Positions 1,190 through 27,200 of a stretch of DNA of 64,000 nucleotides are shown in pieces. The translations under genes and the position numbers were made by a program. Each line of letters begins with the position of its first letter. The first letter of the stretch is position 1. The notes under the pieces were generated by a model, which did no database searches, was not told the DNA's origin, and was given only the letters and a program-made list of their open reading frames with translations. The DNA lies in IMG/VR virus record IMGVR_UViG_3300021431_000079, positions 1 to 64,000 of that record; one strand, written 5' to 3'. Source of the stretch: a virus. Lineage: Duplodnaviria; Caudoviricetes.

Positions 1190-2465
1190 TTAGTCCTCTT
1201 CGGTATCTTCGGGAGCGAAGTAAATGTTATAAAGAGCCTTGTCGGTAGAGCAGTAGTCGGTCTGAAGAGTACCGTTAAATGCGATACCTGCGTCAGTTGT
1301 AAGGGACAGGTCTACTTCCGGGGATACTTGGAAGGATGGGAATTCAACGTACATAGCACGAACCGTATCTGCGGAGCAAGGATCAATACCAAGAACTTTA
1401 AGGGTAAGCTTCACAGTTCCGGGGAACTTATCAGCAGAGTTACGAACTGCAATACCCTCGGTTACGTTACGATCATACTTAACGATGAAAAGCTGATCCT
1501 CAGCATCAGAAGTAGGAGCGGTAAGAACACCTGCGGTAGAAACAGCGTACTGAGTAGCAGAAGCGGCAGTACCCTTGGTGTACTCTTTACCCATAGTACC
1601 GTTAGTGGAAAGACCATAAACCTTTACACTATCAGTAACATAGCCAGCCATGGTGAGAGTATCACCAGTACCTACACGAACAACCTTCGGCATAATGATG
1701 GGCTTTGCAGAAGAAGCAAGCTCCTTACCAGAACCAGACTGTGCTCCAAGAATGTTAAAGTTCAGCATGGTATTGGTAGCACTGAATTCGCCAGATTTAC
1801 CAGTATAGAAACGCTTAATCAGAGTACCGTTCATATCAACGGCATCTTTAGACTCAGCAGTAACGTTGATAGAAGCGTCAGAAAGCTGAGTAAGAACATA
1901 AAGCAGATCGCCATCAAAAGACTCGGCTACACCATAAATAATTCTATCAATTACGAAATCCTGAACCTCATACGATTATAAATCGTAATCTGAGATTGTT
2001 TGTTCACATAGAGTCGCTAATTCTATGCATCCTTTCCATATAAATAATGGTAGGTATCTGATATTTTCATATCAGCACAGACTATATCTTATCCATGCTT
2101 CATTTCTGAAGTTTAGGCGCAAACACTTCCACACGCTTGTGTGTACTCCCTTCACGAGGGATAGTCGTTGAGGGCAAGACTATTCATCTATTCCCTGCGG
2201 ATCGCCCATTATGTTAAGTATTAAGTGTTTAGGATTTAACCATGCACCATATAATAGATTTTTTCTGCTTTCGCCACATTCACATCTGAACATATTTCGG
2301 TTCTATGTTGTAGTTCTATTATCTTTAGGGTTTTCCCGCATATTCGTTTGCTTCATTGGGTAATAATACTACCGCTACATACATGTTTCCATATATGCTG
2401 ACTATTTCATAAATGTGTAAATTATATAACCCCACATCTATAATTTAATCAAGTTTAAAAGCCAT
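1190..2465 (-). CDS. major tail (tube) protein, spliced: join(2448..2465,1190..1960), 262 aa
   Basis: GGAGG RBS, then ATG at 2465 gives MAFKLD; after intron removal it continues in frame as DFVIDRIIYG...AVDMNGTLIKRF. Highly expressed codon usage; position after neck genes. Confidence 0.8.
1961..2447 (-). ncRNA. group I intron (IA-like, 487 nt, no ORF) in tail tube gene
   Basis: Exon ends in U, intron ends in G; P (AUAUGCGGGAAA), Q (GAUCCGCAG), R (UCAACGACUA), S (AAGAUAUAGUCU); IGS GUGGGGUU pairs with the exon end with a U-G pair at the splice site. Confidence 0.9.
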
Positions 2466-2514
2466 AATTACTTTTCCTCCTATTTTAATAGAAATTTTAA
2501 TTGAAGCAATATAA

Positions 2515-2548
2515 AAATAAAAAACAGACGGAGTATAAACCCGTCTGC
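2515..2548 (-). terminator. intrinsic terminator-like hairpin
   Basis: CAGACGG/CCGTCTG stem plus U-run on the minus strand. Confidence 0.55.
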
Positions 2549-2622
2549 TTCTTATAGCGACATATATTATAATCCTTGTAATCCTATTAATAAGAGTAAT
2601 AATGATTTAATAGCGAAGCTAT

Positions 2623-3513
2623 TTATTTCATCAAACTTCTCATGAAGTTGAATTCTTCCTTTGGTACTTTACTTAAATCCGCAAAACCAGAACTGGCTGA
2701 ACTCAAAAGTGCTCTTGTATTCTCATACACCTGCAACCTCTGAACAGCGTCCATGAATTCAACTATTCCAACATGATCTAATTCATCTGCTCTATATTTG
2801 AAACCCGGATGATTAATACAAGAGGAGATAAGCGGAAGCAACATAGAAGGATTGTTATCCTTCTTCTGCATCAGCAATTTATCTTCTTCCTCCTGAATAA
2901 TCCATTCCTTAGTTGTCTTACCCTTAGCTTTTTCCACCTTCGGAAAAATATTGAACATCACACGCATATAATTTGCCATCTTTGTGTAAGTCTCTTCATC
3001 TATCAGAAGCTCAGTTTCCGGATCATACAAAACCATAACCTCTTTATAATCCTTTCCTTCTTCACCCTCTTCACCTTCTTCAAGAGGTTTCTTCATGTTG
3101 TAAAGTCTAAGGGATCTGAGATCAACATCCTTAAAAAGGATCTTCTGAACGTCTGGATGAATACCACTTACGAGCATAGCAAAAAGCTGAAAATCAGTTA
3201 TTTTGTTCCAGTCTATCTGCATCTTCCATAACTGAAGTCTATAACTTGTTGGGTTACTGACAAAAATATTTACCGTAGAATAAAACTCTTTTTCACCAAA
3301 TTGTTTGTGATCACCGAATTCTATAATCTCACCAACCATAGGTTGATAGATTGTAATTCGATCATTTACCACATATGGTTTTTTCAGATACATCTTCAAA
3401 AGATCAATTTGTTCTACAGCCTTTTGTCTGGCGGCGGCATACTGTTGACCATTGATATCAATGTTTTGAACTTGCTGTGTAGAATTTTTCTCTACATGAA
3501 ACTTATCTGCCAT
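2623..3513 (-). CDS. hypothetical virion morphogenesis protein
   Basis: 296 aa ORF within the structural operon. Confidence 0.7.
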   Translation of the reverse strand: MADKFHVEKNSTQQVQNIDINGQQYAAARQKAVEQIDLLKMYLKKPYVVNDRITIYQPMVGEIIEFGDHKQFGEKEFYSTVNIFVSNPTSYRLQLWKMQIDWNKITDFQLFAMLVSGIHPDVQKILFKDVDLRSLRLYNMKKPLEEGEEGEEGKDYKEVMVLYDPETELLIDEETYTKMANYMRVMFNIFPKVEKAKGKTTKEWIIQEEEDKLLMQKKDNNPSMLLPLISSCINHPGFKYRADELDHVGIVEFMDAVQRLQVYENTRALLSSASSGFADLSKVPKEEFNFMRSLMK

Positions 3514-3526
3514 AATATCACCACCA

Positions 3527-4102
3527 TTATAAATTCATATATGAATTAATGGTTTTAGGTTTGCCACCATAACTCTTCACAAGATTATTCGGCATATCAC
3601 CCTCGAAGATGAGAGTGCGTGTTGCATAATCATTATCAGTTACAGATGGTCTGTCAGATACCAAATGCACCTGACAACCAAACAGATTAGACCAGTTAAA
3701 GTCATTCTGTATCAATGCTCCCATTAAATCATGTTTTGCTAAATATGTTGTCTGATCAACAATATTCTTTTGCTCAGACAAACAATAAAAAATGATTCTT
3801 GCAATTTTAATTACTTTATTGTATCGAGCCTCTTCAGAGAACTCGACTTCATAACACACAAAATTTTGTGATTTGGTCTGCGTAGGATGAATGATAAAAT
3901 ATGGAAGGATGTTTACACCAAAATAATCATCTGGTTCTGCATCAGCTTCCTCCAACTCTTTATTATCAATCACATGAAGTAATTTTGTGTTTGACAGAAG
4001 CTTCTGCTTGATTAACTCCTTCCAACGAATGTTATCACTATCCAACGAAGTTCTCAGCGCACGAAGCTCGTCAATTTCTTGATCTGATATGTTTAAGCCC
4101 AT
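3527..4102 (-). CDS. putative tail terminator / neck protein
   Basis: 191 aa ORF with GGAGG RBS, between head-closure and tail tube genes; function from position only. Confidence 0.55.
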   Translation of the reverse strand: MGLNISDQEIDELRALRTSLDSDNIRWKELIKQKLLSNTKLLHVIDNKELEEADAEPDDYFGVNILPYFIIHPTQTKSQNFVCYEVEFSEEARYNKVIKIARIIFYCLSEQKNIVDQTTYLAKHDLMGALIQNDFNWSNLFGCQVHLVSDRPSVTDNDYATRTLIFEGDMPNNLVKSYGGKPKTINSYMNL

Positions 4103-4116
4103 TATGCGCCTCCCTT

Positions 4117-5702
4117 TTACATACCAACTATTTCAAAACTCTGTTTCGCAGTAACGCCACCTTTGATAGCAGTTACAGAAACTATCTTACCAAGTAACTT
4201 ATCAGAAGTGGTTTTGATCTTAATTTGATTCTTAGATAAAGTGGTATCATCATCAGAAGTGATGAAGCTGATTGTTTCATCTGACGAGGTTGTTATCTCA
4301 GTACCATCCAATTCTATTTTCCATCTATCAACATCTACATTCTCAACCACGTTTTCGTACTTATCGAGAAACGTAGCAGTGATCTTCTTGTAATTGCCTC
4401 TAACTTTAAGAGCAGGTTTTACACCTCCAAATACGAGTTTGATGTGATAATCAGGAAGAGAAGAGTGCGGTATCTGTTCCTCAGCCTCTACAGAATATTG
4501 ATCAATTGGGTAGTAATCTGCCCACATACCAATAATCTTTCCAAACTCATCTCTCTCAATATAATCTCTATGAGAATCAAAAATATCTTGAGCGAGAGTA
4601 ACCAACAAACATCCTTCTGACTGAAGCCTGTTTACTTTACTAACTAACCAACAACGTGGGTTCTCGGTTTTTATATCAATTATCATTCGCTGATTATAGA
4701 AAATGTTTTCAGTATCTTTATTCATAGGAACTACAAATTTAATTTGGTCTTCAACGGTAGTAAATTTGAAATCCGTCCAGAGGCCAGAGTTGTCTTATAT
4801 CAACACAATGTAATAATAACAAGTTGTTGTTGTATGTTAACTATTGAGATCGTTACTTTCAATAGAATTATTTATACTATAATAATATAAATAATTTCTC
4901 ATAGTCTCCTATGAGATCAGATCATATCAACACCATATTCTTTTAGAACTTAGGTGATTCCCGTTACCCCACTTGGGGACTTGATCGTTGAGCGTTCTTT
5001 TTAATTTATCTAAAAAAGCTTCGTTGCTGATTGACTTTATTTATCAGATTGTTACCATTTGGTACTGATAACCTAACGAGTGTTCTCAGCAGTTAGAGAA
5101 TTTTCGACATATGGTTTCCCATATGAAGCGCACAATATCTACGAATTCTGACTCCTTCTTACACCAGAGATGTTAAATTTCTTTCCTTTATAAACATACT
5201 GAAATACATGATCACATGGTAATACATCATACTTGGGAAATTGCGGATCATAATAATCCGAAATTCTTACCACCAACCATTTATTATATCTACCCTCAGC
5301 ATCAATGATATCTATATACAATCCAACTGGGAAAATAGCAGAATAAGCATCTTCAAACAATTCACCATAATAATTAACATTACATTGCTGATGAGGTCTT
5401 AACTGAATGTGTCTTGTAACGACATCTTTGTCATAGCTTTGATGTGTAGATATAATAAACTTAATTTCTATAGGAATCTTCTTGGGATCATTTTTGGAAT
5501 TAAGATTCTTCAACTGCGTCTTATGATCATCATGATAATAGTCATACAGATACGCAACCTGACTCGCAGGATCATTCCACCAAGTGTCATTCATTGTATT
5601 GTCAGACTGTATCTTGGCTTTCTCACCCACCGTCATATATCCTAACCCACTTCTATAATTACTGTCAGTATATAGAGCTTTAAATTTTTCATATACTCCC
5701 AT
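4117..5702 (-). CDS. putative head-closure/neck protein, spliced: join(5141..5702,4117..4793), 412 aa
   Basis: Two ORF-track fragments join in frame as RRSQNS-Y-NSGLWTDFK after intron removal; beta-rich C-terminal domain. Confidence 0.75.
4794..5140 (-). ncRNA. group I intron (347 nt, no ORF) in neck gene
   Basis: UCGU|AGAUAUUGUGCG...AUAAG|ACAAC boundaries; R (UCAACGAUCA) and S (UUGAUAUGAUCU) with compensatory P7; P10 UUGU pairs with 3' exon ACAA. Confidence 0.88.
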
Positions 5703-6039
5703 CGCTATCACCGACCTTCATCGCACCTGCAATAGCACCTGCGTCCAAGATAAGCTTACGATACTCAGGGAATGTATAATCATCACTCTCAAAAAGATTA
5801 AGAGCGGCTTCCAATATTACAATTACATTAACTAAATCATCAGGATAGAAGAGTATTGAATTAAATCCAACTATTTTCTTCATTATATTCTTTTGGTAAG
5901 CAGAGACATTTATATCAGGATAATCCTCAGAAGTTTTCGGATCAGTGTAAAGAATACACCAGAAAATCATCCGCTGAACTTCCTTAATATAATGTCGTAT
6001 CTGAGCCTCGGTGAATAAACCGTATTTTGTTTTAACCAT
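5689..6039 (-). CDS. hypothetical neck-region protein
   Basis: ORF coupled to neighbours; start chosen at MVKTKYG. Confidence 0.65.
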   Translation of the reverse strand: MVKTKYGLFTEAQIRHYIKEVQRMIFWCILYTDPKTSEDYPDINVSAYQKNIMKKIVGFNSILFYPDDLVNVIVILEAALNLFESDDYTFPEYRKLILDAGAIAGAMKVGDSDGSI

Positions 6040-6055
6040 ATTTACATCACCCATA

Positions 6056-6505
6056 TCACTCACCATACTTTCCAAAATAATACCCATGTTGAGAAAGTTC
6101 CCTTCCCAACTTTACCTCAAGGTCATGAAGCCGATCCTGCATCTTTCCGTAATTATCAATCAGTTTCTTTTCTTCTTTACCACCAATCATGACAGCCATG
6201 TTAACACCAGTATCAATCTTGGACGGAAGATAGTTGATAATCAATCCTTCAGAAAGAATGTTTGTCACAAACTCCCTGTCATATTCTTCATCAACTGAGT
6301 TCCTCAAGACATAATCCAGTACCATCACTTCATCATCTGTGGTAAAAGAACTGAACTGCTTTCTAAACTGCGGAAGAGCAATGGCGGCTTTCAACCAGTT
6401 CTTCATATAGTCGTAAAAATCATCCTCAACAAGCTGAAATAATTCTGTGTCTTGTATTCTACTAAGCGCTCTCTCATATATTGTTTCATACTTTATTGAA
6501 GACAT
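6056..6505 (-). CDS. putative head-tail adaptor
   Basis: 149 aa helical protein two genes downstream of the major capsid gene; GGAGG RBS. Confidence 0.6.
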   Translation of the reverse strand: MSSIKYETIYERALSRIQDTELFQLVEDDFYDYMKNWLKAAIALPQFRKQFSSFTTDDEVMVLDYVLRNSVDEEYDREFVTNILSEGLIINYLPSKIDTGVNMAVMIGGKEEKKLIDNYGKMQDRLHDLEVKLGRELSQHGYYFGKYGE

Positions 6506-6517
6506 GACGCACCTCCG

Positions 6518-7192
6518 TTAATCAGGAATTACCGACATAAGATCAGTGCCACAAACATCATCAATAATTTTAATCTTTTTAAGAGAATCAAGAGTGCCCT
6601 TCTCAATCATGGTAGCGGCTCTAACAGCAACAGCATTTCTCATACCATCAGAAATCTCTGTGAGCACCTTACGAAGGGCGGTAGAAGGAACATTAATAAT
6701 CGCATCAACATTGTCAAGACCATATACCTTCTCATCATAAAAGTCCTTAAGGTCTTTCCATCTTGGCTGATCCAAAAGTTCCTCATCCTCAATTACGAAA
6801 TATGGCTTATACAGATATTCGGACTTGGCAGTTTTCCTCGCCCAAAGATCACCATACTCAACCTCGCAAAGATCACCAGTAGCTTTCCAAACATATGGAA
6901 TTCCAGACTTACCAGTCATTTTGAGCCAACCCGCAGAAACATTTCTACAAAGAATAAGATCATGCTGATCATAAACCTTCTGCGGCTTTACTTCCTGCTT
7001 TACTGCTTTCTTCGGAGTTACGACTTTCTCAGCGACAGCCTCTTCGGTCTCATCAACCGCCTCCTCAGAAACAGCTTCCTCAGTTTCATCTACCTGAGCT
7101 TTCATAGCACCCTTTACAGCTTCCCTTGCATCATCAACTTTTGAAGCAGTTTTTGCTTTTGTAACATTAATTGAACTTGTTCTTCTTGCCAT
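6518..7192 (-). CDS. hypothetical protein (post-capsid), low-complexity N-terminus
   Basis: 224 aa ORF, AAGGAG RBS, duplicated VDETEEAV segment. Confidence 0.7.
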   Translation of the reverse strand: MARRTSSINVTKAKTASKVDDAREAVKGAMKAQVDETEEAVSEEAVDETEEAVAEKVVTPKKAVKQEVKPQKVYDQHDLILCRNVSAGWLKMTGKSGIPYVWKATGDLCEVEYGDLWARKTAKSEYLYKPYFVIEDEELLDQPRWKDLKDFYDEKVYGLDNVDAIINVPSTALRKVLTEISDGMRNAVAVRAATMIEKGTLDSLKKIKIIDDVCGTDLMSVIPD

Positions 7193-7215
7193 TATATATT
7201 CTCCTTATCTTCCTT

Positions 7216-7251
7216 AAAAAAGTTGTGCAGAGGAGTAACCACTGCACAACT
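7216..7251 (-). terminator. intrinsic terminator after major capsid gene
   Basis: AGTTGTGCAG/CTGCACAACT stem plus U-run. Confidence 0.65.
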
Positions 7252-7268
7252 CAGTAAGTGTAATTTCA

Positions 7269-8372
7269 TCAAGCGGTAACGATATTCCAAGTACCAAAGT
7301 ATCTTCCGATCACGACACCAACACCAATCTTGGTGATGTACTTGAACTCAGAAGTCATATCATTAAGAGTAGTATTATCGGTGATCTCACGAATCTCGGC
7401 ATCACCCTCATACACAAGCTTAATGAACTTGTTATCAACAACAGGCATAATCAGAAGAACGTTAGGATTAACAAGCTTATCCTTTGTAGTTCCCTTAGCA
7501 AATACCTGCGGAATCTCTACAACACGAGTACCTTCCCAGATACCAACATGACCAGTATTTCTATGATCATCCTTATCAGCGGCGGCTCTCCAATCAACAG
7601 GAACGAGATTGCTCAGACGAGCAAGAGCAGTCTTAGTACCCATGATAACTACCTCGCTACCACGGTTAGCGGCCTGAACATCCTCAACCATAGTCTGGAA
7701 ATCAAGCTTGGAGTCAGCAGTAAGCTCAGAGGTCTTATAGAACTGATCATCACCCGGAAGGATCTGAGAACCTGCGGACATAACAGCCTCAAAGACAACC
7801 TCGTTTACATAAGCGTCAACAGCGTCATAAACAGCCTTGGTGAGTTTAGCCCAGTCAGAGCGTCCCAGAAGAACTCTCTCATACTCTTCATAAACGCCAA
7901 GTCCTACATACTCTGTACGAACACGGTAAGGCTCATCCTGACCCAGTCTCTGACGGTCAATGTCCCAATGGTTGCCAGAAAGCTTTGCAACAGAAAGAAC
8001 AGTATTGTCCTCAGTTACGAACTCGTTCTGATCACCATTAGAAAGATTTCTAATGTCAACCCACTCTTGGAAGAACTCATTCTCGCCCCAACCAGTGGTA
8101 AGAGCCTCATCAATATAGTCAATCAGAATATCGAACAGTTCAGGACGATGGTTTCTGATGGCTCTCTTGTATTCTTTTGCGGACATCGTCTCACGATTTC
8201 CACCAATAATTGCATCAAACTTTTCGGAAATAAACTTGTCAGCATCAGCCTTAGTAATGCCGGATTCGAAAGTGCCACGACCTGCATCAGAAAGCAGTTT
8301 GGAGAACTGATTGTATTTTGTCTGGTCGTTATCGAAAGCTTTGCTTACATTATCATACATAAAAATCTTCAT
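7269..8372 (-). CDS. major capsid protein
   Basis: 367 aa, strongly biased codon usage, downstream of protease/scaffold and decoration genes as in SPbeta-like head modules. Confidence 0.8.
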   Translation of the reverse strand: MKIFMYDNVSKAFDNDQTKYNQFSKLLSDAGRGTFESGITKADADKFISEKFDAIIGGNRETMSAKEYKRAIRNHRPELFDILIDYIDEALTTGWGENEFFQEWVDIRNLSNGDQNEFVTEDNTVLSVAKLSGNHWDIDRQRLGQDEPYRVRTEYVGLGVYEEYERVLLGRSDWAKLTKAVYDAVDAYVNEVVFEAVMSAGSQILPGDDQFYKTSELTADSKLDFQTMVEDVQAANRGSEVVIMGTKTALARLSNLVPVDWRAAADKDDHRNTGHVGIWEGTRVVEIPQVFAKGTTKDKLVNPNVLLIMPVVDNKFIKLVYEGDAEIREITDNTTLNDMTSEFKYITKIGVGVVIGRYFGTWNIVTA

Positions 8373-8402
8373 AACAAATATTCCTCCTCTCTACTTTTTT
8401 AA

Positions 8403-8933
8403 TTAGTCATTAGCACGAACAACGAGCTTATAGAATATGCCCTTCGTGCCTCTATTGATCTTCTCAAGAATCTGAGCAACAAAAGTCTTACCATTAGGCT
8501 TAGTAGTTCCTGCATCGCTAAGATCATAACCATCAGCTACAACATAATCGCCAACAGCGATTTCAGCACCATCAGCAACAGCAATACCATTAGCAGAAAT
8601 GGTGAACTTATCGCCACGAACAAGATCATAAACCCTCATGATCTCACCCTCACCATTGTAGAAATTGGACTCAAGGGTAGCGGCATACGGAGTAGAATCA
8701 GGGCCAACAGGAACAGAAAGAATAAGACCAACACGAGAAGTAGCGGTAGGCTCAACCATGGTGAAATACTCATTCTTCTCCCAAACCATATCATCAAGAT
8801 TTACGACTTTACCATTATCAATATCAGCAGCAGCTTTGATATTGAAGATATGTCTGCCATATGTAGTTCCAATAAGATTAGTAGACTCGGCAACAATATG
8901 CTTATCAACATTTTTTAAAAATGCATTAATCAT
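8403..8933 (-). CDS. capsid decoration / minor head protein
   Basis: 176 aa beta-rich ORF between scaffold and major capsid genes. Confidence 0.65.
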   Translation of the reverse strand: MINAFLKNVDKHIVAESTNLIGTTYGRHIFNIKAAADIDNGKVVNLDDMVWEKNEYFTMVEPTATSRVGLILSVPVGPDSTPYAATLESNFYNGEGEIMRVYDLVRGDKFTISANGIAVADGAEIAVGDYVVADGYDLSDAGTTKPNGKTFVAQILEKINRGTKGIFYKLVVRAND

Positions 8934-8972
8934 AACTATCTTTTCTCCTTTACTAAAATTTAATTTAACTAT

Positions 8973-10748: not shown

Positions 10749-10787
10749 ACCTATTCCTTTCTAAATGATTTAAACCATTTGCAACAT

Positions 10788-18229: not shown

Positions 18230-18241
18230 ATTAAGCCCTCC

Positions 18242-18469
18242 TTATAATTTCTTCCATTCACCAGATGAGTTTAACATATATACATCCGATGTTTCTATTA
18301 CAATTGCCACAGAACCAGTGGCGCATCTCTCTTTATGAGTATTCCTTCCATATTCATCCTCATGAGGTTGATTTGTTGGAAGGTCTTGCAGATCAGCAAC
18401 AGTATCACAAGTAAACTCTCTGTAAAGAGGATTATTCTTTCTATCTTCAACAGTCAATACTGAATACAT
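18242..18469 (-). CDS. small hypothetical protein paired with the adhesin-like gene
   Basis: 75 aa, GAGGT RBS, GSVAIVIETSDVYMLNSSGEWKKL motif. Confidence 0.7.
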   Translation of the reverse strand: MYSVLTVEDRKNNPLYREFTCDTVADLQDLPTNQPHEDEYGRNTHKERCATGSVAIVIETSDVYMLNSSGEWKKL

Positions 18470-18493
18470 CTGTACTTACCTCACCTTCTTATA

Positions 18494-19519
18494 TTATGTA
18501 AATAATTCATCAGCTTCAGCTTCATCATCAATACCGCACACATATATTTTCGTTGTCTCTGCGGAATTGTGACCAAGTAATGATCTAACAACCTCAATAC
18601 TCTTTCCGTCCTCAACGACTCTAACTGTCGCTGAAGCACTTCGAAAAGCATGAGGATAAATTCGTCTTCCTAAAATTGGAGTCAAAATATCCATACAAAT
18701 ATCATTGAGCGTAGCAGGTGTAGCAGGAACATAATTTCCATGATCCTTCGTTATGAACATTTCATTTACATTATCCTCTCCACGAACCTCTATCCATTTC
18801 TTAAAAGCGTCCATAGAATAGTCAGAGAATTTCAACTGCCTAATCTTACCAGTCTTGCCCCTACCCTTACAACGTATCTTAGGAGTCTGGTAATATTCAG
18901 CGGTTTTCTTCTCTACGCTTCCGTCTTCATTTTTTACCTCAACCTCTTTTACAATTTTCTCAGCATTGATAATATCCTTCTGAATCTGAAGCAACTCGCC
19001 TCTACGACACCCAGTTTCAAATGCGAATTTAATAAAAGCTATAATCATGTATTTGTTCCAACGATTACTCTTTTCTACCTCATCACAAAGCATCATGATT
19101 TCTTTGCGGGTAGGTGGATTTTTTTCATGAACATAACTTTTCTCTGGCACAGGAATAGAAGAGTTTACACAATTCCTGAACATTGGATATTCGTCTAAAT
19201 AGTAAACTTCAATATAGTTATTAAGACTACTAATAGTGGAACGCTTTGTTCTTATATCAGAACTTGAGCATCCTCTGTTAACCAACCAGTTCTGAAACTT
19301 TAGATATTCCCTTGGTTTTATTTCTGTCACATTCTTGTTGTTCAAATTATCTTTGATCCATTTTAGCCAAATACGAAGACTTGACTTATATGCAAATAGC
19401 GTCTTGTCAGAAAGCTGTGTTGAGTTTACCAAAAAGTCCTCCACAAGTTCTCTGTTCAACTGATTACATAATGCATACTCTTCGTCAGTAATGGGTGGCA
19501 ACTTTATCAATCTCATCAC
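18494..19519 (-). CDS. tyrosine recombinase (XerC/D-like)
   Basis: GCRRGE, KG, HAFR, LGH and TKIY catalytic residues all present. Confidence 0.88.
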   Translation of the reverse strand: MMRLIKLPPITDEEYALCNQLNRELVEDFLVNSTQLSDKTLFAYKSSLRIWLKWIKDNLNNKNVTEIKPREYLKFQNWLVNRGCSSSDIRTKRSTISSLNNYIEVYYLDEYPMFRNCVNSSIPVPEKSYVHEKNPPTRKEIMMLCDEVEKSNRWNKYMIIAFIKFAFETGCRRGELLQIQKDIINAEKIVKEVEVKNEDGSVEKKTAEYYQTPKIRCKGRGKTGKIRQLKFSDYSMDAFKKWIEVRGEDNVNEMFITKDHGNYVPATPATLNDICMDILTPILGRRIYPHAFRSASATVRVVEDGKSIEVVRSLLGHNSAETTKIYVCGIDDEAEADELFT

Positions 19520-19639
19520 ATCCTTTCATAGCATAAAAATTTTAAAGCACTTATAAATATTTGTAAAATATATTACACGCATTGATAAATGCTTTAAAAT
19601 ATACAAAAATATATAAAGATATTTATTGTAAAAAAGAAG

Positions 19640-19670
19640 AACAAAAAGGAGGACTGTTAAAGTCCTCCTC
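19640..19670 (-). terminator. intrinsic terminator
   Basis: AGGAGGAC/GTCCTCCT stem plus U-run on the minus strand. Confidence 0.65.
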
Positions 19671-19742
19671 TATAAATAAAAATATAATTTATGGATAAGC
19701 ACAGCCCCAGTGGAATAACCACCAAAGCCATGCTCATTAGCT

Positions 19743-20195
19743 TTATTCATATTCAATCCCAAATAACATAACTTCTTGGAAATTGTTCAAGCAATAATCA
19801 ACGATCTCTTGGTTTACATTATCTTGGTTAAGAAAACACCTAACATAATCATCACCGCCTAATGACATACATTTAAGCACGCATTGATTAGCACCATTTA
19901 TATTTCTGAAATTATATACTGGTTCAATATATATTCTTTTCTTTGCGTCAATATCAAGCAAATAATAATCAGCATTATTGTGATAGTGTTTTCCATCCCA
20001 TTCAATTGAATATACTTTAAATCCCATGTTCAGGCTCATTAACCTAAACATCAAATCTAAAATAAAATCGTTATTACCAAATACAGATATACTATCAAAT
20101 TCCTCTAAAAGATCAAAACGTATTATTATATCTTTTACTAAGTCATTCGTGTCTTCATAATCTTTGATCTCAAGATCTTCATATATGTTTTTCAA
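19743..20195 (-). CDS. hypothetical protein
   Basis: 150 aa ORF in operon. Confidence 0.65.
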   Translation of the reverse strand: MKNIYEDLEIKDYEDTNDLVKDIIIRFDLLEEFDSISVFGNNDFILDLMFRLMSLNMGFKVYSIEWDGKHYHNNADYYLLDIDAKKRIYIEPVYNFRNINGANQCVLKCMSLGGDDYVRCFLNQDNVNQEIVDYCLNNFQEVMLFGIEYE

Positions 20196-20217
20196 TAAGC
20201 ATCACCACCAGTTCCAA

Positions 20218-20538
20218 TTATTTCTCAGCAACGTCCCTCTTCCAGTTCGTGGCTACCTTTGCCCTTACCCTTCTGTGTGCAGGAACGTTCATCATTTCAC
20301 CAGTAGCAGGATTGCGTCTCTCAGCTTCCTCAACCATAGGAGTATCAAATGTCATGAAGCCCATGATTCTCACAGTGTTTCCTTCAATGGTAGCACCCAT
20401 GATGCCATCCATAAAATAGTTAAGAACACTCTTGATATTTGCCTTGGAAAGTGCAATACCATCATCCTTCATAGCTGCCTGAACTGCAACCACCAAATCA
20501 TTTAACGTAATAATCTCAGTCTTATTATTCTTGCTCAT
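20218..20538 (-). CDS. HU-like DNA-binding protein
   Basis: VRIMGFMTF...RRNPATGEMMNVPA HU/IHF signature. Confidence 0.88.
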   Translation of the reverse strand: MSKNNKTEIITLNDLVVAVQAAMKDDGIALSKANIKSVLNYFMDGIMGATIEGNTVRIMGFMTFDTPMVEEAERRNPATGEMMNVPAHRRVRAKVATNWKRDVAEK

Positions 20539-20566
20539 ATCTTTCTTTCTCCTTATAATCTCTTTT

Positions 20567-21811
20567 TTAATCTAACTTTATATTTCTTGTGCATTCCCTA
20601 CCTTCTTCATTATTCATGATCAAAAGTGTTTGACCCGCAGAGGAGTAGAGCCGTTTGTTGTTTGCGTAATCATCTGTTCCGCACAGACTTCTTACTATAA
20701 TGCTTTCTATGTCGAAAGCTTCAAATTCTTCAAGATGATGCTTATCCCCGGAAATCACATAATCAATTGACTTTCCAAATTTTCTTGTGAATAATGTATT
20801 GACAGTGACTCCAACATCTTTGATGTTATCAAGATCACCATGAATAGCGCATATGTTATATCCGAGAACACTTAACAACGTGAACTCTTTATATTCTGAT
20901 TCATACACTGTGACCTTGTGATTGTTTTGAAGCCTCTGCTTAATCCACCAAGGAAGAATCTTTTCCATATTATCTGTATGTACAGACTCTTTATTGTTTT
21001 GTATAGTTCTTGCGTGATTTCCATAACAAGAATAGAACTCGATATTTTCTACATATTTTGATAGTTTTTGAATCATTTCAGCCATAATTTCCGAAACATG
21101 CATCAACTGATCACATGTATCTTCCTCTGATGCAACTCTGCAAGAAATATGAATTGCTCCATGGAAAGCATCGCCAAGAGTTAAAATATATAAACGTTTT
21201 ATCTGGAAGAGCTTTAGGTATTCAATGGTTTTCTCTATGAGTTTTTCAACACGCTCTCTACAGATTTCCGTATTATATTTATTCCAAATATTATCTGTTA
21301 CCATTCCGTAATGCCAATCAGATAACACAAGGATTGCTTCTCTGTGACCAGAGTAATAAACATTATCTGGCGCAGGAGTATTTAGCGGAAGCTCCCTGTT
21401 TAATCTTTCAGCACATTCAAGAAGTTTTTCCGTAAGATTATCCGCTCTACCATCAGAAGCTAACAACTTGTTATACTCTCTGCGCTGATCACTTACTTGC
21501 TTCTTTATCTTATAAAGGTTGTCCTGTTGAATCTTAATTTCCTCAAGATGCTTGTCTCCTAATATGCTATCAAAAACACCTGCCTCATAGAACTTTCTGG
21601 CTGAAGCTACATCTTTTCTAAAAGCAGACTCACCTTTATAAGCTGAGAAATCTTCATTATATAACTGTCTGTTTACAACACCAACAACTTCTTCCCAGTT
21701 GTGATATATACCCTGACGAATTAATCCGTCAACCCTCCAAACATATTTATAATAATCCTCACCATCTCTGATCTTTAATTGATCTATATAAGTTGACTGT
21801 TTATCATCCAT
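20567..21811 (-). CDS. calcineurin-like metallophosphoesterase
   Basis: SDWH, GD, GNH, HGD and GDKHH motifs. Confidence 0.85.
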   Translation of the reverse strand: MDDKQSTYIDQLKIRDGEDYYKYVWRVDGLIRQGIYHNWEEVVGVVNRQLYNEDFSAYKGESAFRKDVASARKFYEAGVFDSILGDKHLEEIKIQQDNLYKIKKQVSDQRREYNKLLASDGRADNLTEKLLECAERLNRELPLNTPAPDNVYYSGHREAILVLSDWHYGMVTDNIWNKYNTEICRERVEKLIEKTIEYLKLFQIKRLYILTLGDAFHGAIHISCRVASEEDTCDQLMHVSEIMAEMIQKLSKYVENIEFYSCYGNHARTIQNNKESVHTDNMEKILPWWIKQRLQNNHKVTVYESEYKEFTLLSVLGYNICAIHGDLDNIKDVGVTVNTLFTRKFGKSIDYVISGDKHHLEEFEAFDIESIIVRSLCGTDDYANNKRLYSSAGQTLLIMNNEEGRECTRNIKLD

Positions 21812-21823
21812 GCACAGCCCTCA

Positions 21824-22072
21824 TCATTCCAAGTCAAGATCATCGTACCCACGAGGTGCTCCATCATTATCATCATCGGCCTCATCAGGAAGTTCGAAGG
21901 AAAGCTTAAATGTAAAATATTCAACACCCTCTGGAAGTTCGGGCTTAAGCTGTTCGCCCACTGACCCATTCTCATCCATCAGGACTCCATCTTCATTAAT
22001 ATATACATCCTTAAAGGTGATGTTTTTCTTTCTGTTAGTAACCTTTGGGTCTGTAATTTTAATCTGAATCAT
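21824..22072 (-). CDS. small acidic hypothetical protein
   Basis: 82 aa ORF, AAGGAG RBS. Confidence 0.65.
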   Translation of the reverse strand: MIQIKITDPKVTNRKKNITFKDVYINEDGVLMDENGSVGEQLKPELPEGVEYFTFKLSFELPDEADDDNDGAPRGYDDLDLE

Positions 22073-22110
22073 GATTATTTATTCTCCTTATACTGTTATA
22101 CAGTTTAAAT

Positions 22111-22773
22111 TTAATTCATAACAATAACATCAGAAAGACTTGTGATAATTTTGTCCGCAATTCCGAAGCTTTCAGATGTTGCTTCTTTAGGTGAGATATA
22201 CCAGTCCTTCTTCTGATTCTTTGTGAACACCTTTGGATCAATTGTTGTACGACTAAGAATGTATTCACGCATTTTATGAAGAGTATCTTTGTAATTTTTT
22301 GTAGCGGCGGCAATTTCTTCTTGTGTTCCAGAAACACCCTCTATTCTACCCTGATGGCAAAGCAATTGACTGTGTTCAAATACAAATCTCTTTTTTCCTG
22401 ACAGGAATATAATAAATGCTGCCGACATTACGGAAGACAACGCGATCGTATACACTGGCGTTACCGATGTTTGTATTACATCAGCAAGAGAGAAAGCCAA
22501 TTCAAGATCTCCTCCGGGGCTATCAATCAACACCAGAATTGGTTTTCTTTCGTCTATTGATTTACCAATGTCCTCAATGTTAATGCTAATAATATTTTTA
22601 ATTAACTGTGAAATTTCGGAATATCCAGAATCATCCCTATAGATTACATCCTCTATATAAAATGTTCTGTTGTTTCTTCCTATATAATAGTCTAAATCTT
22701 CTGGATCTGGCAGTTCCATTTGAGAATATGTTTTAAGCAAACGCTCAACACCTTGTAAAAGAATATCGCTCAT
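22111..22773 (-). CDS. ClpP-like protease subunit
   Basis: IDSPGG, VMSAA (Ser), LCHQ (His) and KDWY (Asp) motifs. Confidence 0.85.
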   Translation of the reverse strand: MSDILLQGVERLLKTYSQMELPDPEDLDYYIGRNNRTFYIEDVIYRDDSGYSEISQLIKNIISINIEDIGKSIDERKPILVLIDSPGGDLELAFSLADVIQTSVTPVYTIALSSVMSAAFIIFLSGKKRFVFEHSQLLCHQGRIEGVSGTQEEIAAATKNYKDTLHKMREYILSRTTIDPKVFTKNQKKDWYISPKEATSESFGIADKIITSLSDVIVMN

Positions 22774-22805
22774 GCAATTTAATAACTCCTTTATCAATAT
22801 TTGAA

Positions 22806-24038
22806 TTACATCTTATCTGCAACCTCAGCTATCTTTGATCTATAGATATTTTTCAACTCAATCTCTCCATAGAATGGTTGACCCCTGAATACCTCAGATA
22901 GTCTACGCATACCATTATTCTTACCAGAGTATTGAGCCATATCTACTTGCTGTTTATAATCACCATCAACAATACAAATACAGTCATTACCAATTCTCTG
23001 AAGCGCAAGCTTCATAAGAGTAATATCCATATTCTCTGCTTCGGTAATATATATTGCGGCACTCATACCAGACGTATCATAACCTCTGATATCACTCATT
23101 GGCATAAGGATGATTTTCTCCTGAGATAACATCTGCTCAAGCATAAAAGAACCACCAAGTTTTGAACTCAGTATTCCACCAACCTGAGAATCAACAAGCT
23201 TCTCGTCTCTTGTTCCGGGATAGAAACCAAGTCGAGCCGCATTAACAGTAGCAACAGGATTACAGAAAACAATAATTTTATCTATCTTATGTCTCTCTAA
23301 AAGATTCATCATCACACCAAGTGCAAGAGTAGTTTTACCAGATCCCGCCTTACCAGTAAGCATTGTGATCTGATTGTTGAATAAGCTATTTAATGCGCAC
23401 TGTTGATACACATCACCGTTATATGCTTTGACCATTCCAAGAGCGGTAGACTTAGCATTTTCAATTTTAATATTTTTGTATTCAGTGCCATTCCAAATGA
23501 GCTTATCAACTATGTTGCCATTTGAATCTTTTACTATGAGATACTGATTAATTAAAGTATCGAATCTACGTATTTTTAAATCGCTGTAAAACTCAGCCAT
23601 CTCTTCATCAGAAAGACTAACCTCAACATATCCAGTATAATCATTCTTCTTTTCATCTTGCTCTTCATTTACTCTGAGTTTGAAAGACTCACGAGCAATT
23701 ATCCTACAGCAAACATCTTTAGAATAGAAGATAAGATTCTCATCGTTAAATACGACCTTGCTTGAAAGTGCATCACTACAAATGATATCGTCTGGTGTTG
23801 AGCATTGATCCCTGTCTGCAAAACTTACAACTTTGAACTTATCATAATGATGATCAATAAACTTGGCAATTCTATTTGCTTTGAGCTTCACATCATCATC
23901 TTTGTTCTTGTTGGTCTTTATATTCTCCAACTCACGCAAGGTTTGTGTGGAGAGATATAAATAATCATCCTTCGTAAGTTCGTCCAGTTCTTCATTCGAG
24001 AGATCAAGTAAATAGCTTGTGTCAAAAAATCGGATCAT
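22806..24038 (-). CDS. phoH: PIN-domain PhoH-like ATPase
   Basis: N-terminal PIN-like FDTS...RELE...DD; GKAGSGKT; LGFYPG; IRG; EAEN; GDYKQ. Confidence 0.85.
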   Translation of the reverse strand: MIRFFDTSYLLDLSNEELDELTKDDYLYLSTQTLRELENIKTNKNKDDDVKLKANRIAKFIDHHYDKFKVVSFADRDQCSTPDDIICSDALSSKVVFNDENLIFYSKDVCCRIIARESFKLRVNEEQDEKKNDYTGYVEVSLSDEEMAEFYSDLKIRRFDTLINQYLIVKDSNGNIVDKLIWNGTEYKNIKIENAKSTALGMVKAYNGDVYQQCALNSLFNNQITMLTGKAGSGKTTLALGVMMNLLERHKIDKIIVFCNPVATVNAARLGFYPGTRDEKLVDSQVGGILSSKLGGSFMLEQMLSQEKIILMPMSDIRGYDTSGMSAAIYITEAENMDITLMKLALQRIGNDCICIVDGDYKQQVDMAQYSGKNNGMRRLSEVFRGQPFYGEIELKNIYRSKIAEVADKM

Positions 24039-24089
24039 GATAAATTCTCCTTTTTTAATTTATTTGTTCAAAATAAGAAAAGAAGATTA

Positions 24090-24266
24090 TCACTTCCAAT
24101 CACTTGAGTAGATTATTTTATCATCTCTATACTTCTTTAAATAAGAAAGATTTCTGGGAGATTCTACCATATAATAATGTCTGCGCTTTCCATATGTATG
24201 AAAAATATTTCTGTCACCAAATCTCTTTCTGATTGCCATAGCTTCTTGTTTATTTACTAAAACCAA
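24090..24266 (-). CDS. 58 aa hypothetical protein (below ORF-track cutoff)
   Basis: TTG start just after the RNAP stop with AAGG RBS; open frame VLVNKQEAMAIRKRF...SDWK. Confidence 0.5.
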   Translation of the reverse strand: MVLVNKQEAMAIRKRFGDRNIFHTYGKRRHYYMVESPRNLSYLKKYRDDKIIYSSDWK

Positions 24267-24268
24267 AA

Positions 24269-27200
24269 TTATGTACCTTCCTTATATACATATTCTGAAT
24301 CCTTACCCTTAACAAAAGATTCCATGAAATACCGATTATTTGTTCTATACATACAGTTCAAGAACTTTCTGGAATATCTCTTGTTAGCATCCTTTAATTC
24401 AGTTCTTTCCAATTCATTATCATTCAGAATAGATAGCTCAACTATCTTGTTCACAGTAGCCCTTCCCATTTTAATACCACGAATACCATCTAACAGTTTT
24501 TCCATCTTAGATGATATTTTAGTGTAACTGTCAAAAGAGGAGAGTTCCTTATCATCAGAAATATCCGAGATAGCTTCTATGTATTCTTTAATTAACATCC
24601 TAACCTTTGTAATGTGATCCGTGTTAAAGTTGTCTTCAACCTTCACAAAAAAATCAGTGGTAGGAAGAGTCTTGTCATATATTGTTGGTTTGATGGCGTT
24701 TAAACATTCTACCAACCAGTTCATAGGACAAACAAAATCAGGATTGATTCTGTTTTTCATCTTATTTATGTTCTTCTTAACAACATCATAAGAAATAACA
24801 TCACCGTCTTTTATATGCTGAACTGGTCTTGTGTGTTTCATAAATTTTGGAAAGTCATATTTGTACTTTCTAACATTTCCATCATCATCTGTTATATATC
24901 TAACGTACTGCATACACGAAAGGTTTTGCAGTCGCACAATCTCAGCATTGGCATCCACCTCGAATTCTCTCTTAGTGGAGTCGATAATAACCTGCCCTGT
25001 TAAGTGTTGTAGCTCTTTATCTACAACCTTTGGCTTTCACCAAAGTGTCGGACTATCTCTTTATCTACGACTTTACGTTTAGATATTCGGCGCTCGTGTC
25101 CTGATTATTGCTTACCTGCTCACAGATTAGTCTCTGAACCTTCTTACTACTTTTATGGTATTCGTAAGCTTGGCTTCTGATTGGCATATATATTCACATA
25201 CTTAGCTTTCCAGAAATTCACCGAATTTTAATTATATATATTTCTATATAATTGACCCATTTTGTTAAGCCAACACACTCAAAATTATAAACACGTTATA
25301 CAGTTGCTTTGTATCTTGATCAGTGTCCTCAGACAGTCCATTACTTATATTCGTATAGTAATAGGAGAGTGCGAGTTGTGCGAGATTAGAAGACCAACCT
25401 ATTCCAAGTCTTGACTTAGAAAGATTATTATCCATCTTCGCATAATCCTCTAAAGTGTTATCATAGAAGATACCACTCTCTTTCAATGCGTTCACAATTG
25501 TTCTATAATTCGTAAACGCTGTCTTTGCACACCTTACAATGTCTTGTTGATTTGTCACGAAGCAGAAGTCTGCACCTGTTATATCCACGGCTCTTTATCC
25601 GTAGCGTCTCCAACTTTCATTGGAGTATCGGACTATCTCATCAACCCAATTACCATTAGGCTGTTCGGCACTCGTGTCTGGGTTATCGCTCTACCTGCTC
25701 ACCAGTTAGTCTCTAAACGTTACCACCTACTTCAATGGTATTCAGTAGTCTTCGTAATTGATTGGCATATATTTATAAAATACTTAGCTTTCCAATTTTT
25801 CACCGAATTTAATCATCATTATTGCTAATGAAGTGATCCAATTTTTAGATATACAATACTTATTGAATACTATATATCATGCAAGAAAATCAAAATCAGC
25901 ACCGTTCAATCTCGACTGTATACTCGTATTTATACAATTGACAGCAATTATATTTGGACTAAACTTAAAGTACCTTTCCATCTCATCTGAATAATGATTA
26001 TGAAAGTACACTATATTGTTCGGGCTATTATGTGGACTTCTGAATCCTGCAAGATACTCACCATCAGCAAACCTCTTTGTATAGCACTGAATGCAATCCT
26101 TCTCAAACTGTAAAGATTGATCCTTGTTCCAATCCTCACCAACAACATAAAGCAGGAGAGCATATGGATTCCCACACAAAGTAAGATTATCTGCATTAAC
26201 AAATATCTTTCCAGTTCTTAACTTTTCCACATAAGCAAATATAATTGCTCTCTTTTCCTTCTTAAACCAATTGCATTTCCAGATATCCCTATTCCATTTC
26301 AAAAGATCAGCAAGCATCTCATAGTGATTACTGATGTTTGCGTTCTTTCTTAGAAATGCCTCAAATACATCAACATTATTTTTTAATTTCGTTATATACT
26401 CTGCACTTGTTTGAATAATGTTCTCAATATCACTCTTTGTACATGGTAAACTATTCACCATCTGATAGCTCATCTGCTGATACTTACCAAGTTTACTTGG
26501 GTGATCTGTTTTCACTATTCCCCAGTTATTTCCATTTTCTCTGATTTTACTCTTCCAATACTCATAAGCCTCAAGCTTATCATTCCCCATTATGTCCCAA
26601 AATTTCTTATACCACTTAACAGCATTCTCAGTTGTGATGATCTTTATGTCCTTCAGCCTGTGCTTTAATCCAAAAATATCTGCAACCTCATAAGTGTCAT
26701 AATCATTTCCTGTTTTTTCACACCAGTCTTTAAAGAAGAGTTGAATATGTGTCCTGAATCCACACATCTTAAAGAAGTGATTCCTGAGCAACAACATTCC
26801 ATTAGAATCATCTGGCATACAGCTTGATTCTATGAGTCCCATTCCATCCCAAAGAGTATTGACCACATCACGTTCTTCCGTCTTAACTGCACATCTCTTT
26901 TGAATCTCATTGTTCTGGTCGTAATACTCTTCAGCATAAACAACATCAACCATTGTCCTGAATACAGAATCCTGATCCTTTACAATAACCAAATTCTCTA
27001 CTGGCATATGGAATAGCCCGGTAATAGATGATGTAGTAAGAGGAGCATATGCTGACATTTCCACGATCTTAGCATTATGCTCTGGCATCTTATGACCAAC
27101 ACCCATAGTCAACCAGTTATAAGCTACATCATATAGTTCCTCGTTGATAAACATAGCCTGACCAAGTTTAGCCTTAGCGGGAGTCCTGAACAGATACTTG

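What the first reader, a model, noticed from the sequence alone, without database searches (positions are those of the whole stretch)
1961..25887. Four ORF-less group I introns in essential late-pathway genes, with no homing endonuclease in the window
Seen: introns of 487, 347, 315 and 273 nt lie in the tail tube, neck and RNAP genes. None has room for an endonuclease ORF, and I recognise no HNH, GIY-YIG or LAGLIDADG gene in the 64 kb. Established: phage group I introns are best known in DNA-metabolism genes and usually spread through encoded or free-standing endonucleases. Inference: either mobilisation in trans or by reverse splicing, or retention as a layered splicing control on virion production.
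Basis: partly seen in the sequence, partly recalled or inferred. Interest (0 to 1): 0.75.

Follow-up and report, generated by a model that had tools for sequence, protein, structure and literature searches.

The report
Four endonuclease-free self-splicing phage introns
Four small group I introns do interrupt the tail-tube gene, a nearby virion gene and the RNA-polymerase gene of a 165-kb SPbeta-like phage with no homing endonuclease, but relatives carry two of them with endonuclease genes or lack them entirely, so this is ordinary mobile-intron gain and loss, not a new control system.

Summary
Introns of 487, 347, 315 and 273 nt lie at window 1961-2447, 4794-5140, 25573-25887 and 24995-25267, all on the minus strand. 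All four match the group I covariance model. Each follows an exon U and ends in G. Removing each restores a frame colinear with intron-less homologues. None holds a sense frame longer than 42 codons. The complete 165-kb genome shows none of ten endonuclease families searched.

The unusual readings are not supported. At the exact I3 site one relative carries a homologous intron with a NUMOD4-HNH gene. At the exact I4 site two relatives carry one with a GIY-YIG gene. LAGLIDADG-bearing introns sit 24 nt from I2. Free-standing HNH-type genes sit beside intron-bearing tail-tube genes. About three quarters of relatives have no intron in the polymerase gene. Contigs 93-98% identical to this phage lack I1 or I3 precisely. 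This is the classical homing cycle, with ribozyme-only introns as survivors or hitch-hikers.

The tail-tube label holds. The polymerase label rests on indirect evidence. The "neck" label is unverified.

Comparable cases are published: Cluster J mycobacteriophages, crAss-like phages and PhiPA3. Interest is low to moderate.

The parts
1961..2447 (-). I1, 487-nt ORF-less group I intron in the tail-tube gene, between codons 6 and 7
   Evidence: RF00028 47.0 bits, E 7e-11, model 1-253. Follows exon U and ends in G. Absent to the nucleotide from contigs L143, L144 and L145, which are 93-96% identical. About 115 nt of extra sequence lies in the P5 loop.
2448..2465 (-). Tail-tube gene exon 1 (MAFKLD)
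   Evidence: Spliced N-terminus matches the contiguous MAFKLGD... of 24 relatives.
1190..1960 (-). Tail-tube gene exon 2 (256 codons plus stop)
   Evidence: Model pLDDT 86.7. Foldseek 8xkn_B tail tube protein, E 1.5e-14, TM 0.69-0.73. A 97%-identical homologue carries PF27173 YomU_Tube.
4794..5140 (-). I2, 347-nt ORF-less group I intron in virion-module gene B, splitting the Tyr-191 codon
   Evidence: RF00028 56.2 bits, E 1e-13, when searched alone. Fold z-score -4.5. Junction SQNS|YNSGLW matches intron-less relatives. A homologous 732-nt intron sits at the same site in L133.
5141..5711 (-). Gene B exon 1
   Evidence: Matches phrog_5251 profile positions 37-125. Colinear with intron-less 404-421-aa relatives.
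4117..4793 (-). Gene B exon 2, with a C-terminal Ig-like domain
   Evidence: Matches phrog_5251 positions 145-224. Ig-like domain at Z about 10 in the model of homologue L112. Role in the virion is not established.
25573..25887 (-). I3, 315-nt ORF-less group I intron inside the DFD|SD motif of the RNAP-like gene
   Evidence: RF00028 77.7 bits. Absent to the nucleotide from contig L004, which is 96-98% identical. Same-site homologues in L005, L007, L074 and L055. NUMOD4-HNH version in L025.
24995..25267 (-). I4, 273-nt ORF-less group I intron at ILSVLA|QVIID of the RNAP-like gene
   Evidence: RF00028 104.1 bits. 74% identical to I3 over 225 nt. Same-site ORF-less homologues in L004, L009, L025 and L001. 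GIY-YIG versions in L045 and L064.
25888..27640 (-). RNAP-like gene exon 1
   Evidence: phrog_8308, E 3.6e-81. 2599 homologues. The PMBT24 homologue is annotated RNA-dependent RNA polymerase.
25268..25572 (-). RNAP-like gene exon 2
   Evidence: Colinear with the uninterrupted homologue in MT835469.1. Contiguous with exon 1 in L004.
24269..24994 (-). RNAP-like gene exon 3
   Evidence: Colinear with uninterrupted homologues. The spliced product is 927 aa.

Best explanation
These are four genuine ribozyme-only group I introns. They belong to a pool of mobile introns circulating among SPbeta-like phages of roughly 100-220 kb from gut or rumen metagenomes.

In that pool the same conserved target sites are invaded again and again. 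The targets are the DxDxD motif and an ILSVLA/QVIID block of the RNAP-like gene, the SQxSYNSGLW block of gene B, and the 5' part of the tail-tube gene. The invading introns sometimes carry HNH, GIY-YIG or LAGLIDADG genes, or sit next to free-standing HNH-type genes.

This phage carries the endonuclease-free state of that cycle. Its introns either lost their ORF, never had one, or were copied in by recombination after a co-infecting relative's endonuclease cut an intron-less allele.

They persist for two inferred reasons. An intact catalytic core removes them from the mRNA, so they cost little. An occupied site can no longer be cut by endonucleases aimed at the intron-less sequence.

Shown here: the introns, their boundaries, the conserved and covarying fold of the I3/I4 family, presence/absence among near-identical genomes, endonuclease-bearing same-site homologues for I3 and I4, and the lack of any detectable endonuclease in this genome.

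Inferred: efficient self-splicing, movement in trans, and protection from cleavage.
For: Intron identity and boundaries.

Near-identical contigs lack I3 (L004) or I1 (L143-L145) precisely.

Same-site endonuclease versions: L025 has NUMOD4 (E 1e-14) plus HNH_3 at the I3 site. L045 and L064 have GIY-YIG at the I4 site. Their flanking intron RNA is homologous to I3/I4, and the ORF lies in the P5 loop.

Neighbouring sites: three insertion sites lie within 12 nt of the DxDxD motif, two of them with HNH genes. LAGLIDADG introns lie 24 nt from I2, including one in L143, whose flanking genes are 93-96% identical to this phage. Free-standing phrog_559/DUF4379 endonuclease genes lie directly upstream of tail-tube genes that carry ORF-less introns related to I1 at other sites.

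Sporadic distribution: 91 of 120 RNAP homologue clusters are uninterrupted, 19 end in the DxDxD region and 9 at the I4 site. Of 80 IMG/VR relatives, 69 are uninterrupted. 18 of 33 related genomes have RF00028 hits and 10 of 33 have HNH_3.

Selection on the ribozyme: in 10 ORF-less I3/I4-family introns, 43 of 59 consensus pairs show compensatory double changes with few broken pairs.

No endonuclease in this genome.
Against: Splicing was not observed. No transcript data were available.

For I1 no relative with an intron at the same site, with or without an ORF, was found. For I2 the only same-site homologue (L133, 732 nt) also lacks an ORF. For these two introns, descent from an ORF-bearing form is therefore an extrapolation.

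Two different endonuclease families occupy the same loop of one intron family. At least some ORFs were therefore gained by already ORF-less introns, so 'decay' is not the only direction.

The introns hold no recognisable endonuclease remnants.

The endonuclease searches cover ten families plus the relatives' own enzymes. A novel nuclease family would be missed.
Confidence: 0.8

Rival explanations
1. Some of these introns reached their present sites by endonuclease-independent reverse splicing into RNA with a short match to the internal guide sequence, followed by reverse transcription and recombination. An example would be I4 arising from an I3-type intron, or the reverse.
For: I3 and I4 are 74% identical paralogues in one gene. 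From the sequence, their 5' exon ends are similar (UUGAUU and UUGGCU) and their guide sequences differ at few positions. One intron family occupies four sites in the RNAP gene, three of them within 12 nt. In a tree of 10 family members the introns do not group by site, although only one node is well supported.
Against: Endonuclease-bearing members exist at three of those four sites (A0, A1 and A2 in the DxDxD region count as three, plus the I4 site). Ordinary or slightly relaxed homing therefore suffices. The tree is essentially unresolved, with bootstraps of 44-56. I did not look for a reverse transcriptase in the genome. To my knowledge, reverse splicing followed by genomic fixation has not been demonstrated for phage group I introns.
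Confidence: 0.1
2. The introns are retained as a layered control. Splicing efficiency gates production of active polymerase, tail tube and gene B product, and so times virion assembly.
For: I3 splits the catalytic DxDxD motif, so the unspliced message ends at ...GADFDFLA and lacks the third Asp. All four sit in genes on the same strand as the virion module. The ribozyme fold of the I3/I4 family is under selection.
Against: Most relatives do without any of these introns. Contigs 93-98% identical lack I1 or I3. Insertion into the most conserved codons is the expected signature of homing-endonuclease targets, not of regulation. Selection on the fold is equally expected for a selfish intron that must splice to be tolerated.
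Confidence: 0.05
3. The interruptions are not introns. They would be assembly artefacts, decayed pseudogenes or intergenic spacers between separate small genes.
For: The genome comes from a metagenome assembly. I1 scores just under the Rfam gathering threshold.
Against: All four give full-length covariance-model matches. Independent assemblies from other samples hold I2-, I3- and I4-type introns at the same sites. Deletions are exact to the nucleotide in near-identical contigs. Frames are restored exactly.
Confidence: 0.02

Closest known systems
Cluster J mycobacteriophages: group I-like introns in capsid (LittleE) and tail (BAKA, Optimus) genes (Pope et al. 2013, PMC3706429; read)
   Same: Introns lie in virion structural genes. 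They are present in only some closely related genomes. The 265-bp tail-gene intron has no endonuclease gene, yet is related to an endonuclease-bearing intron elsewhere. Splicing was shown by RT-PCR to be efficient.
   Different: The host phylum and phage lineage differ. Those genomes hold many free-standing HNH genes, whereas this genome has none detectable. This phage has four introns, two of them in a polymerase gene.
PhiPA3 gp210 intron in an RNA-polymerase beta-subunit gene (Birkholz et al. 2024, PMC11620839; read)
   Same: A group I intron sits next to conserved catalytic-region aspartates of a phage-encoded RNAP. The endonuclease attacks the intron-less allele of a co-infecting relative. 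This gives a concrete reason why an occupied site is advantageous.
   Different: The PhiPA3 intron carries its HNH gene, and the polymerase is a multisubunit enzyme of a nucleus-forming jumbo phage. Here the polymerase is a single-chain YonO/RdRP-like protein, and the introns in this genome are ORF-less. HNH and GIY-YIG versions occur only in relatives.
crAss-like phages of the Delta and Zeta groups (Yutin et al. 2021, PMC7886860; read)
   Same: Gut phages of about 100-190 kb with many group I introns in core genes, including the major capsid protein. Up to 14 introns are reported per genome.
   Different: Those introns were found through their endonuclease domains, so ORF-less ones were not the focus. 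The phage order (Crassvirales, Bacteroidota hosts) is unrelated. No codon reassignment is needed in this window.
HMU Bacillus phages SPO1/SP82/phi-e DNA-polymerase introns, and Staphylococcus phage Twort with several ORF-less introns in one gene (recalled from memory; Goodrich-Blair and Shub 1994 appears in the reference list seen)
   Same: Similar intron cores carry divergent or absent ORFs in related phages of Bacillota. Several introns lie in one gene. Distribution is sporadic.
   Different: The target genes and intron lineages differ. These resemblances are recalled, not tested here.
Collaborative homing of an ORF-less intron with a free-standing endonuclease (cyanophage psbA intron with F-CphI; recalled from memory)
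   Same: Relatives L147 and L148 show this arrangement: an ORF-less intron in the tail-tube gene with a free-standing HNH-type gene immediately upstream.
   Different: This genome has only a 157-nt spacer at that position and no such gene anywhere.

Membership tests
Group I catalytic intron (Rfam RF00028) | Covariance-model match at or above the curated gathering score of 50 bits | tested here: met
   I4 104.1, I3 77.7 and I2 56.2 when searched alone. I1 reaches only 47.0 bits (E 7e-11, full model length), so for I1 this one criterion is narrowly missed.
Group I catalytic intron (Rfam RF00028) | The 5' exon ends in U (U-G pair in P1) and the intron ends in G | tested here: met
   Read directly for all four. 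The same holds for 14 related introns whose boundaries were extracted. The P1 U-G pair appears in the model alignments of I4 and I2.
Group I catalytic intron (Rfam RF00028) | Precise removal restores a reading frame colinear with intron-less homologues | tested here: met
   Nucleotide-exact absence of I3 and I1 in near-identical contigs.
Group I catalytic intron (Rfam RF00028) | Conserved core helices supported by compensatory changes | tested here: met
   I3/I4 family, 10 sequences: 43 of 59 pairs have double compensatory changes. Not tested for I1 or I2, which have too few same-lineage sequences.
Group I catalytic intron (Rfam RF00028) | Guanosine-dependent self-splicing | not testable with these tools
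   Needs in vitro transcription and splicing, or RT-PCR.
Mobile (endonuclease-encoding) group I intron | A homing-endonuclease ORF inside the intron | tested here: not met
   Longest sense stop-to-stop frame is 42 codons. Antisense ORFs have no endonuclease domain. No remnants by tblastn. Relatives' versions do carry HNH_3, NUMOD4-HNH_3, GIY-YIG and LAGLIDADG_3.
Intron plus free-standing endonuclease pair (collaborative homing) | A free-standing homing endonuclease encoded in the same genome, typically next to the intron-bearing gene | tested here: not met
   Ten families searched in six frames over 165 kb gave no hit. tblastn with the relatives' free-standing enzymes found nothing significant. 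A family not searched cannot be excluded.
Siphophage tail tube protein (Pfam YomU_Tube, PF27173) | Tail-tube fold and family match | tested here: met
   Foldseek 8xkn_B E 1.5e-14, TM 0.69/0.73. YSD1 and Chi tube proteins also match. PF27173 is precomputed for the 97%-identical P0121. The local Pfam copy gave no hit.
YonO / RdRP-like two-barrel single-chain RNA polymerase | DxDxD metal-binding motif and membership of the RdRP family (PF05183) | tested here: inconclusive
   The DFDSD motif is conserved in homologues. Homologues in isolated phages are annotated RNA-dependent RNA polymerase. Atlas neighbours include a cluster with PF05183 on 32% of members. Neighbouring genes in relatives carry SPbeta families YonB, YonD_N and YomU. 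However, PF05183 gave no direct match, no solved relative was found by sequence, and no structure was predicted.
   Matches only phrog_5251, of unknown function. The model of homologue L112 has pLDDT 69.5. Only the C-terminal Ig-like domain matched (Z about 10). Foldseek TM scores are 0.2 or lower. The gene lies between the capsid-side genes and the tail-tube gene.

The most novel reading that the evidence does not exclude
This endonuclease-free phage may be 'vaccinated'. It keeps ribozyme-only introns at four hot spots that its relatives' HNH, GIY-YIG, LAGLIDADG and free-standing nucleases target. That would make it immune to cleavage during co-infection without paying for a nuclease. In addition, one intron family may have hopped between at least four sites of the RNAP gene, three of them within 12 nt of the catalytic motif, possibly by reverse splicing rather than homing.
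Probability: 0.25. Interest if true: 0.55.

Novelty: new member of a known kind. Interest (0 to 1): 0.3.

Why it matters
The main value is for annotation. In this abundant but little-studied clade, gene callers split the tail tube, gene B and the 927-aa polymerase into fragments. About a quarter of the 120 closest polymerase homologue clusters in public databases are truncated at these two hot spots.

The clade could also serve as a natural system for studying the homing cycle. One intron family occurs with HNH, with GIY-YIG or with no ORF. Insertion sites are clustered. Near-identical genomes differ by single introns.

It does not reveal a new mechanism.

Tried and rejected
- Megablast of 25 kb against GenBank phages gave no match.
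- A single-protein scan of IMG/VR found nothing. An alignment-based scan was needed.
- Pfam gave nothing for the polymerase, gene B or the tail tube in the local copy.
- PF05183 searched directly against the genome gave nothing.
- A profile search of solved structures with the polymerase alignment gave only a spurious isomerase hit.
- Two fold searches for gene B recognised only an Ig-like domain.
- I first took the LAGLIDADG intron of L113 and L143 to be the ORF-bearing form of I2. Junction mapping showed it lies 24 nt downstream and belongs to the lineage that resembles I1, so I withdrew that claim.
- The 688-nt 'insertions' in gene B of some relatives are probably two tandem introns about 40 nt apart, not one long intron.
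- Additional introns in the other 101 kb: none by Rfam at gathering or E <= 0.1, and none by blastn with the four introns.
- A tree of the I3/I4 family was too poorly resolved to tell site-switching from vertical descent.

Full report
**Setting.** The window is the first 64 kb of a single 165,006-bp IMG/VR virus record rated 100% complete. Its two ends share an imperfect repeat of about 55 nt. Genes at 1-28 kb run on the minus strand. No close relative exists in GenBank phages by megablast. Protein-level relatives are numerous in gut metagenomes: 2599 homologues of the polymerase-like protein and 521 of the tail-tube protein. Relatives' virion genes carry the SPbeta-derived Pfam families YomU_Tube, YonB and YonD_N. 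More distant homologues of the polymerase occur in isolated Enterocloster and Thomasclavelia phages, where they are annotated RNA-dependent RNA polymerase. I therefore read this as an SPbeta-like siphophage lineage, probably of Bacillota.

**The four introns exist as described.** Reading the minus strand gives:
- I1 at 1961-2447
- I2 at 4794-5140
- I3 at 25573-25887
- I4 at 24995-25267

Each follows an exon U and ends in G. Rfam's group I model matches all four over its whole length:
- I4 104.1 bits and I3 77.7 bits in the standard scan
- I2 56.2 bits, only when the region is searched alone
- I1 47.0 bits, E 7e-11, three bits under the curated threshold

**Independent proof of the boundaries comes from homologues.**
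- The spliced polymerase (927 aa) aligns without a gap across both junctions to an uninterrupted gene in the 176-kb record MT835469.1, and across the first junction to PMBT24.
- The spliced tail-tube N-terminus MAFKLD|DFVIDR matches the contiguous MAFKLGDVIIDR of 24 relatives.
- Gene B's SQNS|YNSGLW matches the contiguous SQSSYNSGLW.
- A contig from another sample, 96-98% identical, lacks exactly 25573-25887 but keeps I4.
- Three contigs, 93-96% identical, lack exactly 1961-2447.

**No endonuclease.** The longest sense-strand stop-to-stop frame in any of the four introns is 42 codons. Antisense ORFs overlapping I1, I3 and I4 have no endonuclease domain. Six-frame profile searches of the whole genome found none of these ten families: HNH, HNH_3, GIY-YIG, LAGLIDADG_1, LAGLIDADG_2, LAGLIDADG_3, NUMOD4, Endonuclease_7, DUF4379 and phrog_559. 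tblastn with nine endonucleases taken from relatives found nothing significant, and no remnants inside the introns. No further group I intron was detected in the other 101 kb.

**The genes.**
- *Gene A is a tail-tube protein.* The model has pLDDT 86.7, and Foldseek matches solved tail tube proteins at E 1.5e-14 with TM about 0.7. A 97%-identical homologue carries YomU_Tube.
- *The three-exon gene is best read as a YonO/RdRP-like single-chain RNA polymerase.* Support is the conserved DxDxD motif (DFDSD here), annotated homologues, protein-atlas neighbours that include PF05183-bearing clusters, and the SPbeta-like context. PF05183 itself did not match, so membership is probable rather than demonstrated.
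- *Gene B (416 aa when spliced) could not be assigned.* It matches phrog_5251 of unknown function, and only a C-terminal Ig-like domain was recognised.

**What relatives show for the polymerase gene.** Of 80 IMG/VR relatives, 69 are uninterrupted in this gene. Seven have an insert only in the DxDxD region, two only at the I4 site, and two at both. Among the 120 best protein clusters, 91 are uninterrupted, 19 stop in the DxDxD region, 9 at the I4 site and 1 elsewhere.

Mapping the junctions shows three insertion sites within 12 nt of the motif:
- A0, before the first Asp: L001, a 724-nt intron with an HNH_3 gene
- A1, after the first Asp: L075, 882 nt with HNH_3; L064 and L084 are ORF-less
- A2, this phage's I3 site: L005, L007, L074 and L055 are ORF-less; L025 is 967 nt with NUMOD4 plus HNH_3

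The I4 site is the same nucleotide position in all carriers. It is ORF-less in L004, L009, L025 and L001. In L045 and L064 the intron is about 1290 nt and holds a 330-346-aa GIY-YIG gene.

The RNA parts of all these introns are homologous to I3 and I4. I3 and I4 are themselves 74% identical. In the family alignment the ORFs fall in the P5 loop. Across ten ORF-less members, 43 of 59 consensus base pairs show compensatory double substitutions with very few broken pairs. The ribozyme fold is therefore under selection.

**What relatives show for gene B and the tail tube.**
- In gene B, 10 of 25 relatives are interrupted in the same conserved block. Only L133 shares this phage's exact site and intron 5' end. 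Its intron is 732 nt and has no ORF.
- Other relatives use sites up to 24 nt downstream. Those introns may carry a LAGLIDADG_3 gene: L113, and L143, whose flanking genes are 93-96% identical to this phage's. Some genomes seem to have two introns about 40 nt apart.
- The lineage at that downstream site resembles I1 rather than I2.
- No relative has an intron at I1's site. L147 and L148 carry I1-like ORF-less introns near codon 23 and after codon 63. Both also have a free-standing 452-457-aa endonuclease gene directly upstream of the tail-tube gene: phrog_559 'HNH endonuclease' at E 1e-33, DUF4379, and a weak NUMOD1 hit. This phage has only a 157-nt spacer there.
- Across 33 related genomes, 18 have Rfam group I hits (up to five per genome) and 10 have HNH_3 genes. 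Several genomes have introns but no HNH_3.

**Interpretation.** This pattern is the textbook picture of the homing cycle: highly conserved target codons, clustered alternative sites, one ribozyme backbone with different or no endonuclease genes, most genomes empty, and near-identical genomes differing by single precise insertions. The endonuclease-free introns are survivors or hitch-hikers.

Two unrelated endonuclease families sit in the same loop of one intron family. The ORF-less form is therefore not simply a decayed end state, because ORFs also invade ORF-less introns.

For this phage the likely benefits are neutrality through efficient splicing, and resistance of occupied sites to nucleases of co-infecting relatives. 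The PhiPA3 work shows such an effect for a polymerase-gene intron (PMC11620839). Both benefits are inferences here.

A regulatory role is hard to reconcile with the sporadic distribution. Reverse splicing remains possible for site switching, but nothing here requires it, and the intron tree is unresolved.

**Comparison with the literature.**
- ORF-less and ORF-bearing introns in capsid and tail genes, present in only some members of a phage cluster and efficiently spliced, were described for Cluster J mycobacteriophages (PMC3706429).
- Dense group I introns in core genes of gut phages, including the major capsid protein, were described for crAss-like phages (PMC7886860).
- A group I intron next to conserved catalytic-region aspartates of a phage RNAP subunit was described for PhiPA3 (PMC11620839).
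- Searches for YonO together with introns found no report of introns in a YonO-like polymerase. The specific host gene may therefore be new, but the phenomenon is not.
- An earlier first-stage note of this scan on the same window (e1-5779195) had already described the two polymerase introns and the split DxDxD motif. My results agree with it.

**Verdict.** This is a new member of a known kind, of low to moderate interest.

Noticed in passing
window 30000-32300: About 2.3 kb of non-coding, almost C-free sequence on the plus strand (GC skew 0.71 at 30-32 kb). It is full of short repeated G/A/T motifs such as GGATGTG, ATCTTGGGA and GATCTGAGAAAGAGG. It lies between the divergent gene modules and could be an origin or a binding-site array.
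   Followed up: no
L001 8424-9021 (MT837385.1); L002 9405-9895 (MT835469.1): Relatives carry a ROOL RNA (271 bits) and a GOLLD RNA (173 bits) a few kb downstream of the polymerase gene; the GOLLD lies among tRNA genes. Rfam finds neither in this genome.
   Followed up: no
G000 73.5-78.3 kb (L137 9532-14215): An array of 10-12 tRNA genes with a 'drum' RNA (78.5 bits) among them.
   Followed up: no
G004 66926-67560; G003 101354-101987; G019 175209-175825; G021 38335-38950: In gene B of four relatives, two full-length group I introns lie in tandem only about 40 nt apart. This implies a micro-exon inside the conserved SYNSGLW block.
   Followed up: partly
window 18494-19519 and 22806-24038: A tyrosine recombinase gene (Phage_integrase, E 2e-16) and a PIN-PhoH fusion gene sit between the polymerase gene and the virion genes on the same strand.
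   Followed up: no
G000 1-60 and 164950-165006: The two ends of the record share an imperfect repeat of about 55 nt with long T runs. The assembly is probably circular or terminally redundant, although IMG/VR classes it as linear.
   Followed up: no
window 2298-2397 (inside I1): I1 has about 115 nt of extra sequence in its P5 loop with no coding capacity. This is the loop that holds the endonuclease ORFs in the I3/I4 family.
   Followed up: partly
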